64,000 bases of DNA from Dictyostelium discoideum (Eukaryota). Positions 44,733 through 59,351 of the stretch are shown here, piece after piece. Made by a program: the position numbers and the translations under genes. Where the stretch lies: positions 5,568,001 through 5,632,000 of the forward strand of contig CM000151.3 in assembly GCA_000004695.1 (NCBI GenBank). The letters run 5' to 3'. A model generated the notes under the pieces. The model was not told the DNA's origin, ran no database searches, and saw nothing but the letters and a program-made list of their open reading frames with translations. Positions within the stretch are counted from its first letter, which is position 1. The number at the start of each line of letters is the position of its first letter.

Positions 44733-45341
44733 GATGTTGATATAGTTTTTGATAAACCTGTTTCTAAATTTTTATCTTTAATTATTATTGGTGTTGTTGA
44801 TTCATTTTTATTTAAATTATTTTCATAATCGTAATCATTATCTTGTTTAGTATTAAATGGAATTGATGTCCATTTTTTCCACTTTATAAAATAACCTCCT
44901 AAATAAAATGAAAATATTGATGTTCCAAAATATGTAAGAAAGAATGGTTTATCATATGATTCACTTGTAAAAATAATCTATATATATATATTTATTATTT
45001 ATTTATTTAGAAAGGTAAATATTAGTATTGTTGGTAAATAATTATAATTTAAATTTAAAAAAAAAAAAAAAATATAACATACTTGAGTAATAATACTTGA
45101 AGCTACCCATAAAGATACAACTGATAATACTAATAAACTACCAATAACATGCCTTCTAACTTTTTTAGTATTTGATTCTTTTTGTGAAATTGATAAAGGT
45201 AATTCATCATCTTCATTATCACCATTTATTGATTTAATGATTGGTGTAATATCGGTGATTTCATTACTACTTATACTACTACTACTTCCTTTATTAATTC
45301 TATTATTATCTTTGTTATTACTATTATTATTACTATTATTA

Positions 45342-45373
<32 letters not shown>

Positions 45374-45568
45374 CCGTATATATTTATTGTTATTTATATC
45401 GTCTGTTATTATGTACAATTCTTCATTTTCAATTATATTATTATTTTCATAATGGTTCACATTATTATTATATTCATATTCTACATTATTGTTATTATTA
45501 TTATTATTATTGTTACTAGTTATTATATCACTTTCATTATTATTACTATTATTATTATTATTACTCAT
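43769..45568 (-). CDS. SLC35F5-like (EamA/DMT superfamily) solute carrier; join(45568..45083,44977..44460,44357..43769)
   Basis: Exon 1 is an N-terminal poly-N region ending …RRHVIGSLLVLSVVSLWVASSIITQ with GTATGT at 45082. Exon 2 is IIFTSESYDKPFFLTYFGTSIFSFYLGGYF…LRISLLLAPFWFFANYTYNLSLDKTSVSTNTILSTLSGIFSLFLSV… with GTAATT at 44459 (phase 2). Exon 3 is TLSGVILVSY…PMMFGYLGLFNLIFLWPIFFILN…MTSPVINSIGLSLSIPFAMISD…. This is 10-TM EamA-type topology. The introns are 105 and 102 nt and AT-rich. Confidence 0.8.
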
Positions 45569-45867
45569 AATTTATATGTGTGATAGTGCATAGGGTGGTC
45601 AAAAAAAAATGAAAAAAAAAAAAAAAAAGATATTTTAAATGTAAAAAATTAAAAAAAAAAAAAAAAAAAACGGGGAACTAATTAATTCCCTTTATTATAA
45701 GATTTTTTTATTATTTTAAATAAAGAGTTCTGTTTTTTTTTTTTTTTTACTATTTTTTTATTTTTGTGACAAACTGGTGTCTATAAAAATTTAAAACACC
45801 CAAGCACTTTATTTTTATTTTTATTTTTTATTTTTTTTTTCTTTAAATTAAAAAGATATTTATGTCG

Positions 45868-45900
<33 letters not shown>

Positions 45901-45947
45901 TAAATTATTTTAGATAATAATAATAATTTTTTTTTTTTTCTTTCATA

Positions 45948-46936
45948 ATGAATGAAAATTCTATTTTTGTTTCTATTATAAGTTATAGGGATAGTGGTAT
46001 ATATTTTTTATTTTTATTCTTATTTTATAACAATAATTGTTAAGTAAAAAAAAAAAAAAAAAAAAATTTATAAAATTTAACAACTTTTTTTTTTAATTTA
46101 TAAAATTTTAGAATGTCAATGGACTATCAAGAATTTAATTGAATTAGCAAAATATAAAGAAAATATATTCATTGGAGTATGTTTACAATATTCAATGAAT
46201 GATGATAGTGATAATAAATGTTTTCAATTTAACTTTGAAGAAGAATATGGTAAAAATCAAATAAGAATTATTAGAATGAATCATACAGAGGCCAAAGGAC
46301 CATGCTATGCAAGAGCATTAGTTCAACAACAATTATTCAAAGGTGAAAAATATTATCTTCAAATTGATAGTCATATGAGATTTGTAAAAGATTGGGATAT
46401 AGAAATGATAAATCAATTATTACAATGTAAAAAACCAAATGATGATAATGGTGGTATGGTTATTGATGAAAAAGCAATTTTAACATGTTATCCAATGGGA
46501 TATAAATTACCAAATTTAATACCAACTCATAGATTTCCAATATTATTAGTGGCAAGTGGATTTGGAGAGAATGATGGTTTCTTAAGATTAGGCGGTAAAA
46601 TTGTATCAAAAAAGTTAATTGAACCATGTTCATCATTATTTTGGGTTTCAGGTTTTAGTTTTTCACGTTCAGATATAATTAATAGTGTACCATATGATCC
46701 AAATTTACAATATCTTTTCTTTGGTGAAGAGATATCAATGTCTGCACGTTTATTCACTCATGGTTATAATTTTTATAGTCCAACTAAAACTTTAATTTTT
46801 CATCTTTGGAATAGAGATTATCGTTCAACATTTAGAGAAAATAATTCTTTAGAGATTCAAAAATTGGAAGAAAATTCAAAAAAAAGGTTATTAATTTTAT
46901 TTAATCAAAATAATAATAATATTAATGATAATGATG

Positions 46937-47032
<96 letters not shown>

Positions 47033-47053
47033 GTAGTAGTAGTAGTAGTAGTA

Positions 47054-47092
<39 letters not shown>

Positions 47093-47102
47093 GTAGTAGT
47101 AC

Positions 47103-47135
<33 letters not shown>

Positions 47136-47334
47136 TGATGGAATTAAAATAGAACTTAAATATAACCTTGGTAAAATTAAAAGTTTAGATGATTATTCAA
47201 ATTATTGTGGTGTAGATTTTAAAAATAAAACGATTAATAATAAAGGTAAATTTGGGGGTTATTATGAAGAAAGAGAAACATTTTTTATGAATGAAATTAT
47301 GGAGTATGTAATTAAATCCCAAATCGGTATTTAA
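45948..47334 (+). CDS. GlcNAc-transferase-like glycosyltransferase (GT60/PF11397 'GlcNAc' family, DxH motif) with a C-terminal poly-N/poly-S tract; join(45948..45996,46112..47334)
   Basis: Exon 1 reads [16 protein letters not shown] with a GTATAT donor at 45997 (phase 1). A 115-nt AT-rich intron ends at AG 46110-11. Exon 2 reads (E)[26 protein letters not shown]…[15 protein letters not shown]…. The motifs IFVSI(A)SYRD.EC and DSH match the family consensus. Confidence 0.75.
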
Positions 47335-47905
47335 ATTGTGTTTAATAAATATAAATTATATTAAGATAATAGATAAAAAACAATTTGAATAAATAAATAA
47401 ATATATTATTATTTTAAAAAAATTATTATTATTTGTATTTCTTTTTTTTTATTATTTTAATTTATTTTAGATTTTTTTTTTATAATAATAATTCTGGCCA
47501 ATTCTACAAAAAAAAAGTACTAAGAGATTTAAAAAGTCATAAAAGATTTTTAAAAAAAAAAAAAAACAAAAAAAAAAAAACGGTTTGTGTGTTGTTTATT
47601 TTTAGTTTTTTTTTTTTTTTTTTGTTTATTTTTTTTTAATCAGTGTTATTACCAAAAACCTCTAATTTATTTATCAAAAATAATAAAAAAAAAAAAAAGA
47701 TTTCATAAATTTATCTGTTCCTTTTTTTTTTTTTTTTTTAAAATCAAACTTTTTTTTTTTTTTTAATTTAAATTTCTTTTATTATTATTTTTTTTTTTTT
47801 TAATTTAAATTTTCTTTTTTTGAATAAAAACTTAATTTAATTTTTAGTTAATCATTTAAATTAAAAACATTAATTATATATTTATTTATTTATTAAAAGA
47901 AAAAA

Positions 47906-48901
47906 ATGAATAAATTATTAAATATTTATTTTAATTCAATTAGACCTGGATCATATTTATTTCCAAGTATTTCAATTGTATTTTTAACACCAGCATTATA
48001 TGTTCAAGATCAGCTTAATTTCGGATTAACATTTTATTCAATTTTTACATTTTATGTTTTATATTATCTTGGATCACAATGGAATACATATTTAGATTAT
48101 ATTACTGGTGTTGATAATAGTAAATCTGATGATAAAACATTATTTGGTGTTATGTCATTAGGTGAATTAAAAATTGCAATGGCTCTATCAGTAATTATCA
48201 ATTATATTTCAATTGGAGTATTATATTTTTATTTAAAATTTATAGAATTGCAATCTGAAAGATTCGGAACAATAGTTTTAATAAATACTTTATTAATAAT
48301 TGTAAATTTATTGTACACCCCATTAAAGTATATTGTAATTGGTCAATTTTCAATAAGATTAACATCATATGTCTTCACCTTATTAATAACATATATAAAC
48401 AGTGGCGTATTCTCATTCTTTGATAGTAATGATCCAATACCTTGTTATTCCTTATTATTCCATTTCTCATATCATCATTGGCATTTGCAAATTGTCTTAG
48501 AGATTTAAAACTTGATAAAGAAAGTGGAATCATTACCATAACAATTCTATTTGGTGAATTTATTTCAAAATATTATTACGTTTTTTGTTTTTTTGTGTAT
48601 GTATAAATTTAAAATAAAATAATAAAAAAAAAAAAAAAAAAAAAAAAATGTTTAGAAAAACTAACTTTTGAAAATAATTAAAAAAAAAAGAACTTATTAT
48701 TATTTATTTTGGTTATCAGGAAAGTTTGGTAATATTTGGTTATTTTTAGTTCCATTATTAATCTTACCATTTTTATTCATCTTTTGTAAGGGTTTCTTAA
48801 AAAATGGAAACTATCAAAAATTAAACCTTAAAACATTCAAATTATATTATTTATTTGGATTTGCAATGTTAATTGGTATAATTATTGGTGGAAAGAAATA
48901 A
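47906..48901 (+). CDS. UBIAD1/MenA-like UbiA-superfamily prenyltransferase; CDS interrupted by an apparent -1 frameshift near 48420-48440, plus one 3' intron (GTATGT at 48597 …AG at 48690)
   Basis: Motif 1 NTYLDYITGVDNSKSDDKTLFGVMSLGE matches UBIAD1 [20 protein letters not shown]. Motif 2 FANCLRDLKLDKESGIITI (NxxRDxxxDxxxGxxT) is present but lies in a different frame from the upstream ORF (47906..48508 versus the frame open from about 48434). No intron can fit between them. The last exon (48691..48901, phase 2 to V-TYYYLFWLSG…IIGGKK*) supplies the final TM helices. Confidence 0.6.
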
Positions 48902-48991
48902 TCATCATACCCCTCTCCCCCCAACTGTCACCCCATCCCAAGTAAATTATAATTTCTTATTTAAATTTTTAATAAATCCAAACTATTTATT

Positions 48992-49088
48992 TTATTGAAT
49001 TGTACAGTCTTTTGATTTATGTTCTTTTTTTATATTTTTTCTTTTCTTTTTTACATGATGACTATTACTATTACTATTACTTAATTCA

Positions 49089-49177
<89 letters not shown>

Positions 49178-49730
49178 GTTATTATTATTATTGATTTCAT
49201 TTTCTGTAGTTGTGGTGGTGGTTGAAATTATTGTTGTTTGACATTTAGATTCTTTTTCAATTGCTGTTATGAACTCAGTATATGAATCTGATCTATGATC
49301 AATAGTTAGAGAACGACGATTAGGTAGTCTAATGAATAAAACTAAGTGGTCACCATCAATAATTCCACTATCTTCAATTGTTGAACCTTCTTCCATTCTT
49401 TTTTTATTTGATAATAGTAAACGTTGTTGATCTGTATATTTAAGAAATTAAAGAATTATAAATTTAAATATTTTATTTTAATTTAATTAAATAAATTTTA
49501 ATTTATATTATAAACAATCAATTAAATCATAATTTTTTTTATTTTTTATTATTATTTGGTTGAATTTTTTATTTTTTATTTTATTTTATTTTTTTTTTTT
49601 TTTTGAAATTCTTACCAAATGGAGTATCTGTATGCTTTTCAATTTTTCTTTTGATATCTTCAGTAGTATCTGATGGATTTACTTCCAATTCAAATGAATG
49701 GCCTAATAAGGATCTAATTGTAATTTTCAT
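48992..49730 (-). CDS. Ubiquitin-like (UBL) domain protein with poly-Thr/poly-Asn and a basic C-terminal tail; join(49730..49616,49431..48992)
   Basis: Exon 1 reads MKITIRSLLGHSFELEVNPSDTTEDIKRKIEKHTDTPF with a GTAAGA donor at 49615 (phase 1). The 184-nt intron ends at AG 49433-32. Exon 2 reads DQQRLLLSNKKRMEEGSTIEDSGIIDGDHLVLFIRL, completing a ubiquitin beta-grasp fold (compare ub: MQIFVKTLTGKTITLEVE…[35 protein letters not shown]). It continues into a (ATT)33-encoded poly-N and a KKKRKNIKKEHK tail. Confidence 0.7.
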
Positions 49731-49815
49731 TTTAAATATTTATTTGTTTATTTATTTTTTTATTTTTTAATTTTTTTATTTTTCTTTTCTTTTCTTTTTT
49801 ATTTTTTTTTTAAAA

Positions 49816-49846
<31 letters not shown>

Positions 49847-49995
49847 ATAAGAGAATAAAAGTTCATTGTTTATCTGAAAAAAAAAAAAAACAAAAATAAA
49901 AAAATAAAAATAAAAAAAATTTGTTTGATTTTGATTTTTTTTTGAAATTTAAGCTAAAATAAGTACATGTTTTCGTTTAAAAAAAAAAAAAAAAT

Positions 49996-50053
49996 TAAAT
50001 AAAATAAAATAAAATAAAATAAAATAAAATAAAATAAAATAAAATAAAATAAA
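49996..50053. repeat. (AAAAT)n pentanucleotide microsatellite, about 11 units
   Basis: The tract aaataaaataaaataaaat… was read directly from the sequence. Confidence 0.9.
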
Positions 50054-50131
50054 GTAAAAAATACTAAAATAAAATAAAAAATATTAAAAATAAAAATATA
50101 TTAATTTGAATTACAATTATAATATATATAA

Positions 50132-50165
<34 letters not shown>

Positions 50166-50503
50166 ATACTTAATTAATTAGCACAATAATTTAATTCAAG
50201 TATCAAAGTTTTAAAGTGAGAGTAAAAAACAAACAAATTTTATTAATTAATTAAAAAAAAAAAAAATTAATTCTGAAAGTTAAAAATAATCACAAAAAAA
50301 AAAAAAATAAAAAATAAAAAAGAAAAAAAATTAAAAAAAAAAAAAGTTACTTATTTTAATTTAATTTCTTTAAAAGTGAAGATAAAAAAAAAGAAAAAAA
50401 GAAAAAAAAAAATATCTTAACGCGTGATTAGTAAAAAAAAAAAATTATAAAAATTAAAAAAATTAAAAAAATTAATTTAAATAATCAACCAATGACTATT
50501 CAC

Positions 50504-50534
<31 letters not shown>

Positions 50535-50737
50535 GCAAATTTAGAAAAGTTAAAAAAAAAAAAATCATCATTGATATTATTATTTTTTTCTATTTTTTAA
50601 TTATTTTCTAATTAATTTTAAAATGTTGACTAAAAAAAAAAAAAAAAAACAAATTTTTTTTTTTTTTTTTAGTTTAGTATTTTTTTTTTTTTCTTCTGAT
50701 AGTGAATAAATTAAATTTATATAAATAATAAAATAAA

Positions 50738-51736
50738 ATGGAACCAATCTTTAAATCAGAAGATAGAATTTGGTATGTGACTGGTACTAGCTCAGGTTTA
50801 GGTTTAAATTTAGTTACACAATTAGCAAAGAAACCAAATACTAAAGTTGTTGCAATTACTCGTAATCCAGCAGAAACAAAAAGTAGAATTGATCCAGAAT
50901 TATTAGAAAATGTTTTTATAATTAAAGCTGACGTTACAAATGAAGAAAGTGTAAAAGAAAGTATTAAACAGACAATGGAAAAATTCGGAAGAATTGATTG
51001 TGTTGTTAATAATGCCGGTTTTGGTATTGCTGGTGCTGTGTAATTATCAAATTTATTATTTTATTTTATAATTAATTATTTTATTTATTTTTATTTTTTT
51101 GTTTAGAATAAAAAAAAAAAAAAAAAAATATTAATTACGATTTAATTTTTTAATTTAAATTTTAGTGAAGAAATTTCAAATGAAGAAATGAGAAAAATCT
51201 TTGATGTCAACTTTTTTGGTCTTTTAAATGTAATTCGTAATGTTAATCCAATCTTGAGAGAACAAAGATCAGGTTTTATCTTCAATATTTCATCAGTTGC
51301 TGGTTGGTTAGGACTTGGTGAATTAAGTGCTTATTGTTCTTCAAAATTTGCTGTCACTGGTTTAACAATTTCTTTAGAACAAGAAATGGCTCAATTCGGT
51401 GTAAAAGTTGTATTAGTATCACCAAGCGGTTTCAAATCAAGTTTTGTTGATACTGGTATGAGTCTTCCAAAGAATAGAATCGATGTATATAAAACTGATG
51501 ATCGTTGTGTATGGTTAGATGATATTGTGAATAATGCACGTGGTAATCCAGATAAATTCTCTGAAGTCGTAATTAACATTTCTGAATCTGAAAACCCACC
51601 TAAAAACATATTTTTAGGAACTCATGCAATGCAATTCATGAGAGGTTGGTTCGCAGCTCAAACTGCTGAATTGGAAAAGAATCTTCCAATTACAATTGGA
51701 ACCGATTATGAAAATGCTCCAAAAATTGAATATTAA
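50738..51736 (+). CDS. Short-chain dehydrogenase/reductase (SDR) family oxidoreductase; join(50738..51039,51166..51736)
   Basis: The Rossmann motif is VTGTSSGLGLNL and NAG is in VVNNAGFGIAGAV. The intron GTAATT at 51040 …AG at 51165 is phase 2 (…GA-V-EEISNEEMRKIFDVNFFG…). The catalytic S…YCSSK (YxxxK) is followed by VLVSPSGFKSSF. Confidence 0.85.
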
Positions 51737-52255
51737 AAATAAAATTTATTTTTTTAATTTTTTCCAACCCCAACGTTTACACAACTGTTTTTATTTTAAA
51801 TTTTAAAATTTTAAATTTAGCAAATGTTTTTCATTTGAAGAAAAAAAAAAATATTATATAAAAATAAATTCAAAAGAACATTAACATTAATTTTCCCATG
51901 TAAATTGAATATTTTTTTTTTAATAATTTAATTTTATTATAAAATAAAAAAATTAAATACTTTTTTTAATAAAAATTAATTTTAACTTTAATAAGTTTAT
52001 AATATTTTTATTTTTGTTTTTTTTTATAAAAATTAATATAAAATAAAAAATTTAAAATAAAAAAAAAAATATCTTGTGATTTTATCTCCATTTTATTGAT
52101 ATTTATTTCCAAAAAAATATCTTTAAATAAATTTTTTACATTTTATAAAAAAAAAAAAAAAATAAAAAAATAATCCTGATATTGATTTGATTTGATTTTA
52201 TTTTAATTGTTTTACAAAATTAAAAAATATTATTATTATAAAAAAAAATAAAAAA

Positions 52256-56592: not shown

Positions 56593-59192
56593 ATGAAAAA
56601 ATTAGTCCATAAAGAGTCCCAATGGGAAATCCTTTCACAATTGGGTAAATATTATTATATTTTTAATAATAAAAAAAAAAAAAAAAAAAAAAAAATATTA
56701 ATTTATATAAAACATAATTAAAAAGGTACTGGGGCATTTGGGAGAGTAGTGAAGGCTAAAAAGATAAACTGTGATGGTACAGGTATTATAATTGATATAT
56801 GCGCAATTAAAATCATAAAAAAAAGCGTATTTGTAAGTAAAATATATTAGATTTTTTTTTTTTTTTTTATTATTAACTTTTTTTTTTAAAAAAGACAAAA
56901 AATGAAATTGAAATTTTAAAACAATTAGATCACCCTTTAATTGTTAAATATTATGGTTATGGAGTTGGAGAAATTGATGATAATATTTATATTTATATGG
57001 AGTATATAGATGGATATCCAGTATCTTCAATTTTAAGAAAACAACCAAAAAATCAATTTCCAGAAGATATTATTAGTAAAATTGTAATAGATTTAGCATT
57101 AATTCTTTCTTATATTCATGACAATGAAAGAAAAATTATTCATAGAGATTTAAAATGTGATAATATAATGTTAGTAAATGATAATACTCATAGTTGTGAT
57201 GTCAATGGAAATTGTAGTAGAAATGGTGGTGGAAGTGCTAAATCTGCAAATCAATCATTTTTCACTGAAGATTGTGTTTGTAATGTAAATGGTAGTGGTA
57301 CAGATGAAAATTGTAAATCTTGTAAATTAAAGTCAAAACCAATTAGAGAGATTCAAGGCAGTTGTGAAAGTTGTGGAAGTGATTTAGAACAGGATTCATC
57401 ATCATCATCGTCATCCTCATCGTCAACTATTAATAATGGCCAAAGTTCAACTTGTCGTTTAATAAATTGTATATATAGTGTTAGTAAAAAGATTAAATTA
57501 ATTGATTTTGGATTATCAAAAGGTTGTGATGGTGATTCAAAATATTATTCATTGGTTGGTACATCAACTCATATGCCACCAGAGGTTGCTCTAAGAAATA
57601 ATACAGCATGTAGAAAATCAGATATATGGAGTTTGGGTTGTACTATAATTGAAATGGCTGGAGGTAATCTTTTTGAAAAAGATATTCATGGAAAACCAAA
57701 AATACCTGACCATTTATCTGCAAGTTGTAAAAATTTTATTCAACGTTGTTTAACCATTGATCCAAATCATAGAGATGATATTATAAATTTGATTTCTCAT
57801 AATTTCATTGTAAGTTTTTTTTTTTTTTTTAAAATTATTTATTATAGAAATCAGTTTTTTTAATTTAATTTTTTTTAATTTTAGGATAGGAATAGAATTA
57901 ATGAAGAAATAAAAGAAGATATTAGTAAATCGAAAATTCAATTTGATGATGAATTTAATGAAATAATATCACCAGGAGATTTAGATAGTGTAAATGAAGT
58001 TGTATTTGGGTTTGATTTCAATCAAACCATTATACCTGGGACTATGAATTCTGTGAAAAAAATAGAATTTGGTGGTTCATTTAATAAAGAATTATTGATA
58101 GATTCACTTCCATCAGCAACATCAATAACATTTGGTGCACGTTTCAATAATGGGAATAAACCTTTTGCTATTGGAGCAATACCATCAACTTGTAAATCTA
58201 TTACATTTGGTTGGACATATAACCAACCATTTTATCCAGGTATTTTACCCAATTCATTAAAAAAATTAATATTTCAAGAAGGTGGTGATTTCAATAGAAT
58301 TTTAGAGGTTGGTTCGCTACCTTCATCAATTACCACATTAATTTTGGGTGATTATGATCAAAAAATAGAAAAAGGTGTATTACCAAGCTCTTTAACCATA
58401 TTGGAATTAGGAGGGGAATTTAATCAACCTTTAGAGGGATCCATACCAGACTCGGTGACTTCACTAACATTAGGATATAGATTTAATAAAGCTTTAACTG
58501 AAAATTGCATTCCACCAAATTGTAAATTTTTAAAATTCGGATCCAACTTCAATAAAGATTTATCACCTGGAATCCTACCATCATCCATTGAAACATTAAT
58601 ATTAGGTTATTGCTTCAATAAAGAACTTGTGGAAGGTTCTCTACCTTTATCAATCACTACATTAATATATGAACATAGAGATAATCAGAAAAAAGTCTCT
58701 TATGATTATAAGGAGGTCACAAATCTCTCCAAAGATTTAGAGGAAAATGAAATAATACCATTAACTCCGGAATCACTACCAGAATCAATCACTAAATTAA
58801 CAATTGGTAAAAATCAAAATCATGTAATAGAATTCAATTGTTTACCACCTGATCTTCAATGTTTAAAGTATCATGGTGGTTTTATTCGTCCACTAATTCC
58901 ACGTGATTTACCATCCTCAATTACATCTGTAAAACTATATAATTATAATTATGAAATTAAAAAAACCTCAATTCCTAAATCAGTTACTTCCTTACAACTT
59001 GGATCTCGTCACAATAAATTTACTCAAATTCAATCCCTATCAAATTTTCATCCAAATATGCGTGATTTAAAAATATATATAAATGATGATGATATTGATA
59101 TCTATAACTTAAAAGATATTATTCCACAAACAATTACAAGTTTAATCATTAATGGTGACAATATTGATTTACCAATTGGAATTGAAAATTAA
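56593..59192 (+). CDS. FNIP-repeat-containing protein kinase (STE/MAP3K-like catalytic domain followed by about 10 FNIP repeats); join(56593..56644,56726..56832,56895..57809,57885..59192)
   Basis: Exon 1 reads MKKLVHKESQWEILSQLG with GTAAAT (phase 1). Exon 2 reads GTGAFGRVVKAKK…ICAIKIIKKSVF (GxGxFG and AIK) with GTAAGT at 56833. Exon 3 reads TKNEIEILKQLDHPLIVKYYGY…IIHRDLKCDNIML…IKLIDFGLSK…GTSTHMPPEV…SDIWSLGCTIIEM… with GTAAGT at 57810. Exon 4 reads DRNRINEE… then FNIP repeats (…IEFGGSFNKELLIDSLPSATSITFGARFN…). A Ser/Cys/Asn-rich insert lies between kinase subdomains VIb and VII. All introns are 62-81 nt and AT-rich. Confidence 0.8.
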
Positions 59193-59351
59193 AAATAATA
59201 CTTATAATAAAATAAATAAATAATAATAATAAAAAAAAACAGTATTTTATTTAATTATTTAATTTTTTTATTTAATTTTTTTATTTTATTTTTATTTTTT
59301 TATTATTATTATTATTTTATTTTTATTTTTATTATATATATATTTTTTTTT

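What the first reader, a model, noticed from the sequence alone, without database searches (positions are those of the whole stretch)
47906..48901. UBIAD1/MenA-like prenyltransferase whose two catalytic Asp-rich motifs lie in different frames (apparent -1 frameshift)
Motif 1 (NTYLDYITGVDNSKSDDKTL) lies in the frame of ORF 47906..48508. The textbook second motif FANCLRDLKLDKESGIITI (NxxRDxxxDxxxGxxT) is encoded 2 nt out of frame starting about 48434. No intron fits, because the two readings overlap within about 20 nt around ttctttgatagtaatgatcc. This is either a homopolymer sequencing error, a recent inactivating frameshift (pseudogene of the vitamin K2/MK-4-type prenyltransferase) or, less likely, programmed frameshifting. 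A 94-nt intron is definitely not the solution, because no donor/acceptor phase combination restores motif 2.
Basis: seen in the sequence. Interest (0 to 1): 0.55.

Follow-up and report, generated by a model that had tools for sequence, protein, structure and literature searches.

The report
One-base gap truncating Dictyostelium UBIAD1-like gene
A vitamin-K2-type (UBIAD1-like) membrane prenyltransferase gene of Dictyostelium discoideum AX4 is cut short in this sequence because one T is missing; eight related genomes have the T and an intact gene, so this is most likely a reference-sequence error or, less likely, a lab-strain null allele, and it is ordinary either way.

Summary
The window matches D. 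discoideum AX4 chromosome 2. ORF 47906-48508 is 100% identical to DDB_G0275791 (XP_643452.2, Q553G1, 200 aa, 'UbiA prenyltransferase family protein').

Eight other assemblies encode an intact protein of 298-300 aa with the same 94-nt intron: five D. discoideum or cf. discoideum, two D. citrinum and one D. dimigraforme. Aligned to them, the window lacks a single T between 48480 and 48481 (CATTG-GCA against CATTGTGCA). It is not in a homopolymer.

The true reading stays in the ORF's frame up to ...FSYHH, then continues C-AFANCLRD. The frame-1 peptide 'LLFLIIPFLISSL' is spurious. Two further AX4-only substitutions (48358, 48441) lie within 123 bp of the gap.

The intact gene is under purifying selection (dN/dS 0.12-0.40). 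UBIAD1 is its best match in both sequence and predicted structure. No GT-AG intron and no slippery site rescues the frame.

Best reading: a low-quality patch in the Sanger reference (about 0.7). Rival: a genuine AX4-lineage loss-of-function allele (about 0.25). Independent AX4 reads could not be reached. Interest is low.

The parts
47906..48480 (+). Exon 1, upstream part: codons 1-191 plus the first two bases (TG) of codon 192, in the frame of the ATG at 47906. It carries Asp-rich motif 1.
   Evidence: It is 100% identical to DDB_G0275791 / XP_643452.2 (P0008) and collinear with the 300-aa orthologues.
48083..48142 (+). First Asp-rich motif, N60-T-Y-L-D64-Y-I-T-G-V-D70-N-S-K-S-D-D76-K-T-L79.
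   Evidence: N60, D64, D70, D76, T78 and L79 are invariant across the Dictyostelium paralogues and metazoan UBIAD1. The motif aligns to [20 protein letters not shown] of UBIAD1 8djk_B.
48358..48358 (+). AX4-only substitution: codon 151 is AGA (Arg). The other genomes have AGT/AGC (Ser), GGC/GGT (Gly) or ACT (Thr).
   Evidence: An older AX4 protein record (P0009) has Ser here, so the base call changed between reference releases.
48441..48441 (+). AX4-only substitution: codon 179 is CCT (Pro). The five other discoideum-group genomes have CAT (His); D. citrinum and D. dimigraforme have GCA/GCT (Ala).
48480..48481 (+). Site of the frameshift. One T is absent between these two G's: the window has CATTG|GCATTT and all eight other genomes have CATTGTGCATTT. 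Codon 192 reads TGG (Trp) instead of TGT (Cys).
48506..48508 (+). Premature TAA reached in the shifted frame, after 9 aberrant residues (WHLQIVLEI). It is the annotated end of the 200-aa AX4 gene model and lies 88 nt upstream of the exon 1 donor.
48481..48596 (+). Exon 1, downstream part, readable only one base out of frame: AFANCLRDLKLDKESGIITITILFGEFISKYYYVFCFF plus GT of a split Val codon. It carries Asp-rich motif 2 at 48490-48537 (N196, R199, D200, D204, T211).
   Evidence: The DNA is identical to the intact allele in L001. N196, R199, D200, D204, T211 and G217 are invariant.
48597..48690 (+). The gene's only intron: 94 nt, GTATGT...AAAG, phase 2. Its position is conserved and its length variable in all eight other genomes.
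   Evidence: After removing it, each of the eight other genomes gives a CDS of 897-903 nt that translates cleanly.
48691..48901 (+). Exon 2: codons (V)TYYYLFWLSGKFGN...IIIGGKK plus the TAA stop. It is not part of the annotated 200-aa AX4 product (P0008, XP_643452.2).

Best explanation
The locus is DDB_G0275791 of D. discoideum AX4. It is a two-exon, 300-codon gene for a divergent UBIAD1-like member of the UbiA family of membrane prenyltransferases.

In this copy of the reference, one T is missing at 48480/48481. Translation therefore leaves the frame at codon 192 and stops nine codons later. The second Asp-rich motif and the last three or four transmembrane helices are stranded out of frame.

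The most likely cause is a short low-quality patch in the Sanger-era AX4 consensus: one dropped base and two miscalled bases within 123 bp. On this reading the real AX4 gene is intact and encodes the 300-aa enzyme.

Shown: the lesion, its exact site, its uniqueness to AX4, the intactness and purifying selection of the gene elsewhere, and the family and fold.

Inferred: that the lesion is an error rather than a mutation.
For: 1. All eight other genomes have the T and an uninterrupted CDS of 897-903 nt.

2. Assembly GCA_054883475.1 (ACTFIT) appears to be the same clonal lineage as the window.
- Over 7 kb it has no differences in unique sequence outside this gene.
- It has identical lengths of a 75-copy and a 42-copy trinucleotide array.
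- It has 0 synonymous differences in this gene.
- Other 'D. discoideum' assemblies differ from AX4 at dS 0.09-0.10.
- Yet ACTFIT carries the intact allele.

3. The three AX4-only differences sit within 123 bp. If 3 differences fell at random in 7 kb, this would happen with p about 9e-4. That is the pattern of a poor read tail, not of independent mutations. The measured D. discoideum mutation rate is 2.9e-11 per site per generation (PMC3466296).

4. The same paper found 1916 differences from the reference shared by independent AX4 lines. It attributed them to reference errors or clone differences, so reference errors are common.

5. The base at 48358 differs between two releases of the AX4 protein record (P0009 Ser, P0008 Arg), so this stretch has been unstable.

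6. There is no secondary decay. The 420 nt downstream of the gap are identical to the intact allele.
Against: No independent AX4 reads or cDNA could be inspected.
- Logan holds D. discoideum runs but no product of this gene in either allele.
- The strain behind GCA_054883475.1 is not known to me.

The change at 48358 between releases moved the reference away from the state of every relative. If that revision was based on better data, the neighbouring frameshift was looked at and kept, which would argue that it is real.

The two substitutions fall at variable, non-catalytic positions, as real neutral changes would.
Confidence: 0.7

Rival explanations
1. The frameshift is a genuine, very recent loss-of-function allele private to the AX3/AX4 laboratory lineage. 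A one-base deletion and two nearby substitutions, perhaps from one error-prone repair event, truncate the enzyme before its second Mg2+/diphosphate-binding motif. The mRNA has a premature stop 88 nt upstream of the last exon junction and might be degraded by nonsense-mediated decay.
For: The lesion is present in the current reference and in both protein releases (P0008, P0009). The revision at 48358 left the frameshift untouched. Both substitutions are non-synonymous with 0 synonymous changes, as expected once constraint is lost. Axenic strains are known to carry private lesions, such as the axeB deletion (PMC4374526).
Against: Three independent changes within 123 bp and none elsewhere in 7 kb of unique sequence are implausible at the measured mutation rate. 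From my own knowledge, the changes (T>A, A>C, delT) are not the G:C>A:T type expected from the nitrosoguanidine treatment reported for AX3. There is no downstream decay. A near-identical genome has the intact gene.
Confidence: 0.25
2. The gene is expressed across the shift by recoding or unusual processing: programmed -1 ribosomal frameshifting, a non-canonical or AT-AC intron, or RNA editing that inserts a base.
For: A -1 slip after TGG (48479-48481) would give a near-normal protein with C192W. Twenty AT...AC dinucleotide pairs restore an ORF on paper.
Against: No X_XXY_YYZ heptamer lies in frame between 48380 and 48500, and no GT-AG or GC-AG solution exists. Every AT-AC 'solution' ends at 48440 and deletes residues that are coding and conserved in all orthologues. 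All eight relatives are simply in frame at this site, so no recoding signal is conserved.
Confidence: 0.02

Closest known systems
UBIAD1 (UbiA prenyltransferase domain-containing protein 1; menaquinone-4 synthase of animals; PDB 8djk/8djm)
   Same: It is the only PDB sequence hit, and the alignment is full-length (E=2.6e-16). It is the best structural match (TM 0.74-0.78, rmsd 3.3 A). Both share motif 1 with the distinctive KSDD(K/R)TL tail, the YT..(L)KY..G segment and motif 2 N..RD...D...G.
   Different: Identity is only 21-26%. The gene is one of three about equally distant Dictyostelium paralogues, so one-to-one orthology and the substrate are unknown. It lacks the N-terminal extension of animal UBIAD1. 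In this window it is frame-shifted.
MenA (1,4-dihydroxy-2-naphthoate polyprenyltransferase, bacteria)
   Same: MenA models are the best-scoring NCBIfam models. The protein belongs to the same UbiA superfamily and has the same two Asp-rich motifs.
   Different: Scores of 15-30 bits fall far short of cut-offs of 102-522 bits. It is not a MenA equivalog.
DDB_G0269330 (Q55E99, 'Prenyltransferase', D. discoideum) and the P0012 paralogue
   Same: Same length class, same motifs and the same C-terminal GGKK. Identity is 32% over the full length.
   Different: These are separate loci. DDB_G0269330 is more than 90% conserved across discoideum, citrinum and dimigraforme (one 90% cluster), whereas this gene is 73-78% conserved among the same species.
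Frameshift errors in draft or Sanger reference genomes, and strain-private unitary pseudogenes
   Same: There is a single-base indel relative to all relatives, clustered with miscalls, with no downstream decay, and the gene model was truncated by the annotators.
   Different: Nothing distinguishes it from these. Which of the two it is remains untested.

Membership tests
UbiA prenyltransferase superfamily (Pfam PF01040) | A match to the family profile above the curated cut-off. | tested here: met
PF01040 is precomputed for all three orthologue representatives returned and is listed for the called gene at all seven orthologous loci.
UbiA prenyltransferase superfamily (Pfam PF01040) | Two Asp-rich motifs (N/DxxxDxxxD-type and NxxRDxxxD-type) that bind Mg2+ and the prenyl diphosphate. 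| tested here: met
   N60/D64/D70 and N196/R199/D200/D204 are invariant across the paralogues and animal UBIAD1. In the window both are encoded, but in different frames.
UbiA prenyltransferase superfamily (Pfam PF01040) | An all-helical fold of about 9 transmembrane helices. | tested here: met
   The AlphaFold2 model of the intact allele has pLDDT 90.9 and pTM 0.87. The top Foldseek hits are UBIAD1, DGGGP synthase, ApUbiA and AfUbiA.
UBIAD1 orthologue group | Closer to UBIAD1 than to any other UbiA subfamily. | tested here: met
   UBIAD1 is the only PDB sequence hit at E<=1 and the best structural hit. The first named non-Dictyostelid hits among 1.84e9 representatives (those I looked up) are animal UBIAD1.
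UBIAD1 orthologue group | One-to-one orthology (reciprocal best hit or a phylogeny). | tested here: inconclusive
   The two paralogues tested score about the same against UBIAD1: this gene 51.7 bits and DDB_G0269330 49.9 bits. The third paralogue, P0012, was not run against UBIAD1. No tree was built.
UBIAD1 orthologue group | Menadione/geranylgeranyl-diphosphate prenyltransferase activity (MK-4 synthesis). | not testable with these tools
   This needs an enzyme assay.
MenA (TIGR00751 / PRK06080 equivalogs) | A score above the equivalog cut-off. | tested here: not met
   Best score is 29.7 bits against a cut-off of 346. TIGR00751 scores 15.2 bits against 102.
Pseudogene (strain-private) | A disabling lesion relative to functional relatives. 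| tested here: met
   One T is missing at 48480/81, with a stop at 48506-48508. Eight relatives are intact with dN/dS 0.12-0.40.
Pseudogene (strain-private) | The lesion is confirmed in independent reads of the same strain. | not testable with these tools
   No read-level or Logan data exist for this gene.
Programmed -1 ribosomal frameshift | A slippery heptamer at the shift site, and conservation of the shift in relatives. | tested here: not met
   There is no X_XXY_YYZ heptamer, and all relatives are in frame.
Spliceosomal intron that bridges the two frames | GT-AG or GC-AG boundaries that yield one ORF with both motifs. | tested here: not met
   Exhaustive enumeration gave 0 GT-AG or GC-AG solutions. 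There is no AG between 48429 and 48497.

The most novel reading that the evidence does not exclude
The standard laboratory strain AX4 really is a natural knock-out of a UBIAD1-like prenyltransferase that is kept under purifying selection in all wild relatives. In that case AX4-based work would be missing one branch of prenyl-quinone (vitamin-K2-like) metabolism, and a comparison of AX4 with a strain carrying the intact allele would show the enzyme's role.
Probability: 0.25. Interest if true: 0.3.

Novelty: already known. Interest (0 to 1): 0.15.

Why it matters
The main value is for curation. The AX4 gene model DDB_G0275791 (Q553G1, 200 aa) is a truncated version of a 300-aa, two-exon gene. 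It should either be repaired, if AX4 reads carry the T, or flagged as a strain-specific null allele. Anyone using AX4 to study UbiA/UBIAD1-type enzymes, or using Q553G1 in alignments, is working with two thirds of the protein and without its second catalytic motif. It opens no new biological question.

Tried and rejected
1. Intron rescue. I enumerated all GT-AG, GC-AG and AT-AC pairs from 48150 to 48500. None is canonical, and the AT-AC hits delete conserved coding sequence.

2. -1 programmed frameshifting. There is no slippery heptamer.

4. Independent AX4 evidence.
- Exact-product look-up of the 200-aa ORF found nothing.
- There are no Logan members in the protein cluster.
- Exact-pattern scans of the metagenome and prokaryote-genome collections found neither allele.

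5. Literature.
- There is no paper text with DDB_G0275791.
- The supplements of the de novo transcriptome paper do not contain it.
- The dictyBase 2011 update and the centromere paper say nothing on what changed between reference releases.
- No paper mentions the new D. dimigraforme/citrinum assemblies.

6. Extending the AX4-ACTFIT comparison through other window ORFs failed for two long ORFs. A third returned only short Logan contigs.

7. The first structure prediction, with 8 close sequences, was useless (pLDDT 40). A 45-sequence alignment fixed that.

8. The bacterial promoter/terminator scan is irrelevant for a eukaryote.

9. The intergenic cluster 50054-50130 could not be polarised, because the other strains are only about 80% identical there.

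Full report
**What the window is.** The window is about 20% G+C with long poly-Asn/AAT tracts and short A/T-rich introns. The 200-aa product of ORF 47906-48508 is 100% identical to DDB_G0275791 (EAL69646.2, XP_643452.2, UniProt Q553G1, 'UbiA prenyltransferase family protein'). That record is from D. discoideum AX4 and sits on an 8,484,197-bp record, which I take to be chromosome 2 from my own knowledge. The finding therefore concerns an annotated gene of the AX4 reference.

**Checking the observation.**
- Motif 1 (NTYLDYITGVDNSKSDDKTL) is in the ORF's frame at 48083-48142.
- Motif 2 (NCLRDLKLDKESGIIT) is at 48490-48537 in the frame one base behind.
- A real 94-nt, phase-2 intron (48597-48690, GTATGT...AG) joins exon 1 to exon 2 (48691-48901). 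It has nothing to do with the shift.
- An exhaustive enumeration found no GT-AG or GC-AG intron that restores a single ORF. Only chance AT...AC pairs did, and these delete conserved coding sequence. No X_XXY_YYZ heptamer is present.
- The core observation and the rejection of an intron therefore hold.

**Where the shift really is.** A protein search returned three clusters of full-length relatives. Listing the cluster members gave:
- five D. discoideum or 'cf. discoideum' assemblies, each with a 300-aa protein;
- two D. citrinum assemblies (299 aa);
- one D. dimigraforme assembly (298 aa);
- the two 200-aa AX4 records.

I fetched seven of the eight loci and aligned the DNA.
- The window lacks one T between 48480 and 48481: CATCATTG-GCATTTGC against CATCATTGTGCATTTGC in the seven fetched genomes. 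The eighth (P0010, second D. citrinum) was compared at the protein level only and is likewise in frame, with Cys192.
- The correct reading therefore stays in the ORF's frame through '...DSNDPI(P/H)CYSLLFHFSYHH' and continues 'C-AFANCLRDLKLD...'.
- In that stretch, differences between species are synonymous in the ORF's frame (TCC/TCA, TGT/TGC, TTC/TTT).
- The missing base is not in a homopolymer.

**Other AX4-only differences.** The closest genome is L001, from GCA_054883475.1 (locus tags ACTFIT). Compared with it over 7 kb, the window differs as follows:
- in homopolymer lengths;
- at a cluster inside an (AAAAT)n array (50054-50130);
- at three positions in this gene: 48358 (AGA Arg against AGT Ser), 48441 (CCT Pro against CAT His) and the missing T.

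All three AX4 states are unique among nine genomes (protein level only for the ninth, P0010) and lie within 123 bp. Three random differences in 7 kb would cluster this tightly with p about 9e-4. An older AX4 protein record (P0009) has Ser at the first site, so that base call changed between reference releases.

**Is the gene functional elsewhere?**
- After the intron is removed, the seven fetched relatives give clean CDSs of 897-903 nt.
- Pairwise dN/dS among them is 0.12-0.40, with dS up to 0.58, which indicates purifying selection.
- The T-repaired AX4 sequence differs from ACTFIT by 0 synonymous and 2 non-synonymous changes.
- The 420 nt downstream of the gap are identical to the intact allele, so there has been no secondary decay.

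**What the protein is.**
- Pfam UbiA scores above its cut-off.
- A profile of the eight full-length proteins hits only UBIAD1 in the PDB (8djk_B, E=2.6e-16, residues 8-296 against 12-292).
- NCBIfam's best models are MenA, far below their cut-offs.
- A search of 1.84 billion representatives found only 136 hits at E<=1e-3. I looked up ten of the top fourteen. The best are two Dictyostelium paralogues: DDB_G0269330, and a 308-aa protein seen only in three strains. The named hits after them are animal UBIAD1, D. purpureum and Cavenderia.
- The paralogues are about 32% identical to this gene. This gene and DDB_G0269330 are about equally distant from UBIAD1.
- Residues N60, D64, D70, D76, T78, L79, Y137, K141, G146, N196, R199, D200, D204, T211 and G217 are invariant across the paralogues and animal UBIAD1.
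- A 45-sequence alignment gave an AlphaFold2 model with pLDDT 90.9 and pTM 0.87. Its best PDB match is UBIAD1 (TM 0.74-0.78, rmsd 3.3 A), followed by archaeal UbiA-family enzymes.
- The label 'UBIAD1/MenA-like' is therefore justified at the subfamily level. One-to-one orthology and the substrate are open.

**Consequence of the lesion as written.** Translation would give 191 native residues plus WHLQIVLEI and stop at 48506-48508. Helices 1-5 and part of the helix bearing motif 2 (H177-199 in the model) would remain. Motif 2 and the C-terminal helices would be lost. From established knowledge of UbiA-family structures, both Asp-rich motifs coordinate Mg2+ and the diphosphate, so such a product should be inactive (inference). 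The stop lies 88 nt upstream of the last exon junction, so nonsense-mediated decay is conceivable (inference).

**Error or real mutation?** I could not reach reads.
- Logan does hold D. discoideum runs: contigs L008-L011 match window 57318-59301 at 100%.
- No Logan product of this gene exists in either allele.
- Pattern scans of the other collections found nothing.

The indirect evidence favours an error.
- ACTFIT looks like the same clonal lineage as AX4. It has identical lengths of the 75-copy and 42-copy trinucleotide arrays, no differences in unique sequence elsewhere, and dS = 0.
- Other 'D. discoideum' assemblies are at dS 0.09-0.10 from AX4, and the neighbouring repeat-containing genes vary in length in every other strain.
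- Within one lineage, three independent mutations in 123 bp are implausible at 2.9e-11 per site per generation.
- The reference is known to carry many discrepancies: 1916 differences shared by independent AX4 lines (PMC3466296).

Against the error reading:
- The revision at 48358 moved the reference away from all relatives and left the frameshift in place. That could mean the stretch was re-examined with better data.
- I do not know the strain of ACTFIT.

I put the reference-error reading at about 0.7, a genuine AX4-lineage null allele at about 0.25, and recoding or odd splicing at about 0.02.

**Verdict.** It misplaced the shift by 40-80 nt and misread part of the second frame. The feature is ordinary: an already annotated gene whose AX4 model is truncated by a one-base gap that is absent from all eight related genomes examined. 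Its value is as a correction to the gene model. Interest is low.

Noticed in passing
not in window; P0146 (DDB_G0269330) and P0012: The D. discoideum group has three UBIAD1-like paralogues that are about 30-32% identical to each other. The 90% cluster of the 308-aa paralogue P0012 contains only strains ACTFIY, ACTFIW and ACTFIZ (not AX4 or ACTFIT). This suggests a presence/absence polymorphism or strong divergence.
   Followed up: partly
L004, L005 (assemblies ACTFIW, ACTFIR) against window 44901-51909: Assemblies labelled 'D. discoideum' differ from AX4 at this locus by dS 0.09-0.10, and their intergenic identity is only about 80-84%. ACTFIT is essentially identical to AX4. The label seems to cover deeply diverged lineages.
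   Followed up: partly
window 50054-50130 (inside the tandem array 49979-50164): This is a second tight cluster of AX4-vs-ACTFIT differences: five substitutions, all to A in ACTFIT, plus a 5-bp indel inside an (AAAAT)n/(AAAAAATAAA)n array. It is probably assembly noise in one of the two genomes. It could not be polarised because the other strains are too divergent there.
   Followed up: partly
window 46909-47133 and 49063-49192: These are very long near-perfect trinucleotide arrays (75 and 42 copies) that encode poly-Asn in the two flanking genes: a GlcNAc-transferase-like ORF on the + strand and a ubiquitin-like gene on the - strand. Their lengths are identical in AX4 and ACTFIT, but the products vary in length in every other strain.
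   Followed up: partly
window 57318-59301 (L008-L011): Logan contigs from runs SRR26869247, SRR26869268, SRR28564543 and SRR26869256 match the window at 100% across an FNIP-repeat gene (58044-59192). These runs are AX4-like and could be mined for reads over 48480.
   Followed up: no
window 48356-48358; P0009 against P0008: Two public versions of the AX4 protein differ at residue 151: Ser in the old UniParc record and Arg in XP_643452.2. A base in this gene was therefore changed between reference releases, for reasons I could not find.
   Followed up: partly
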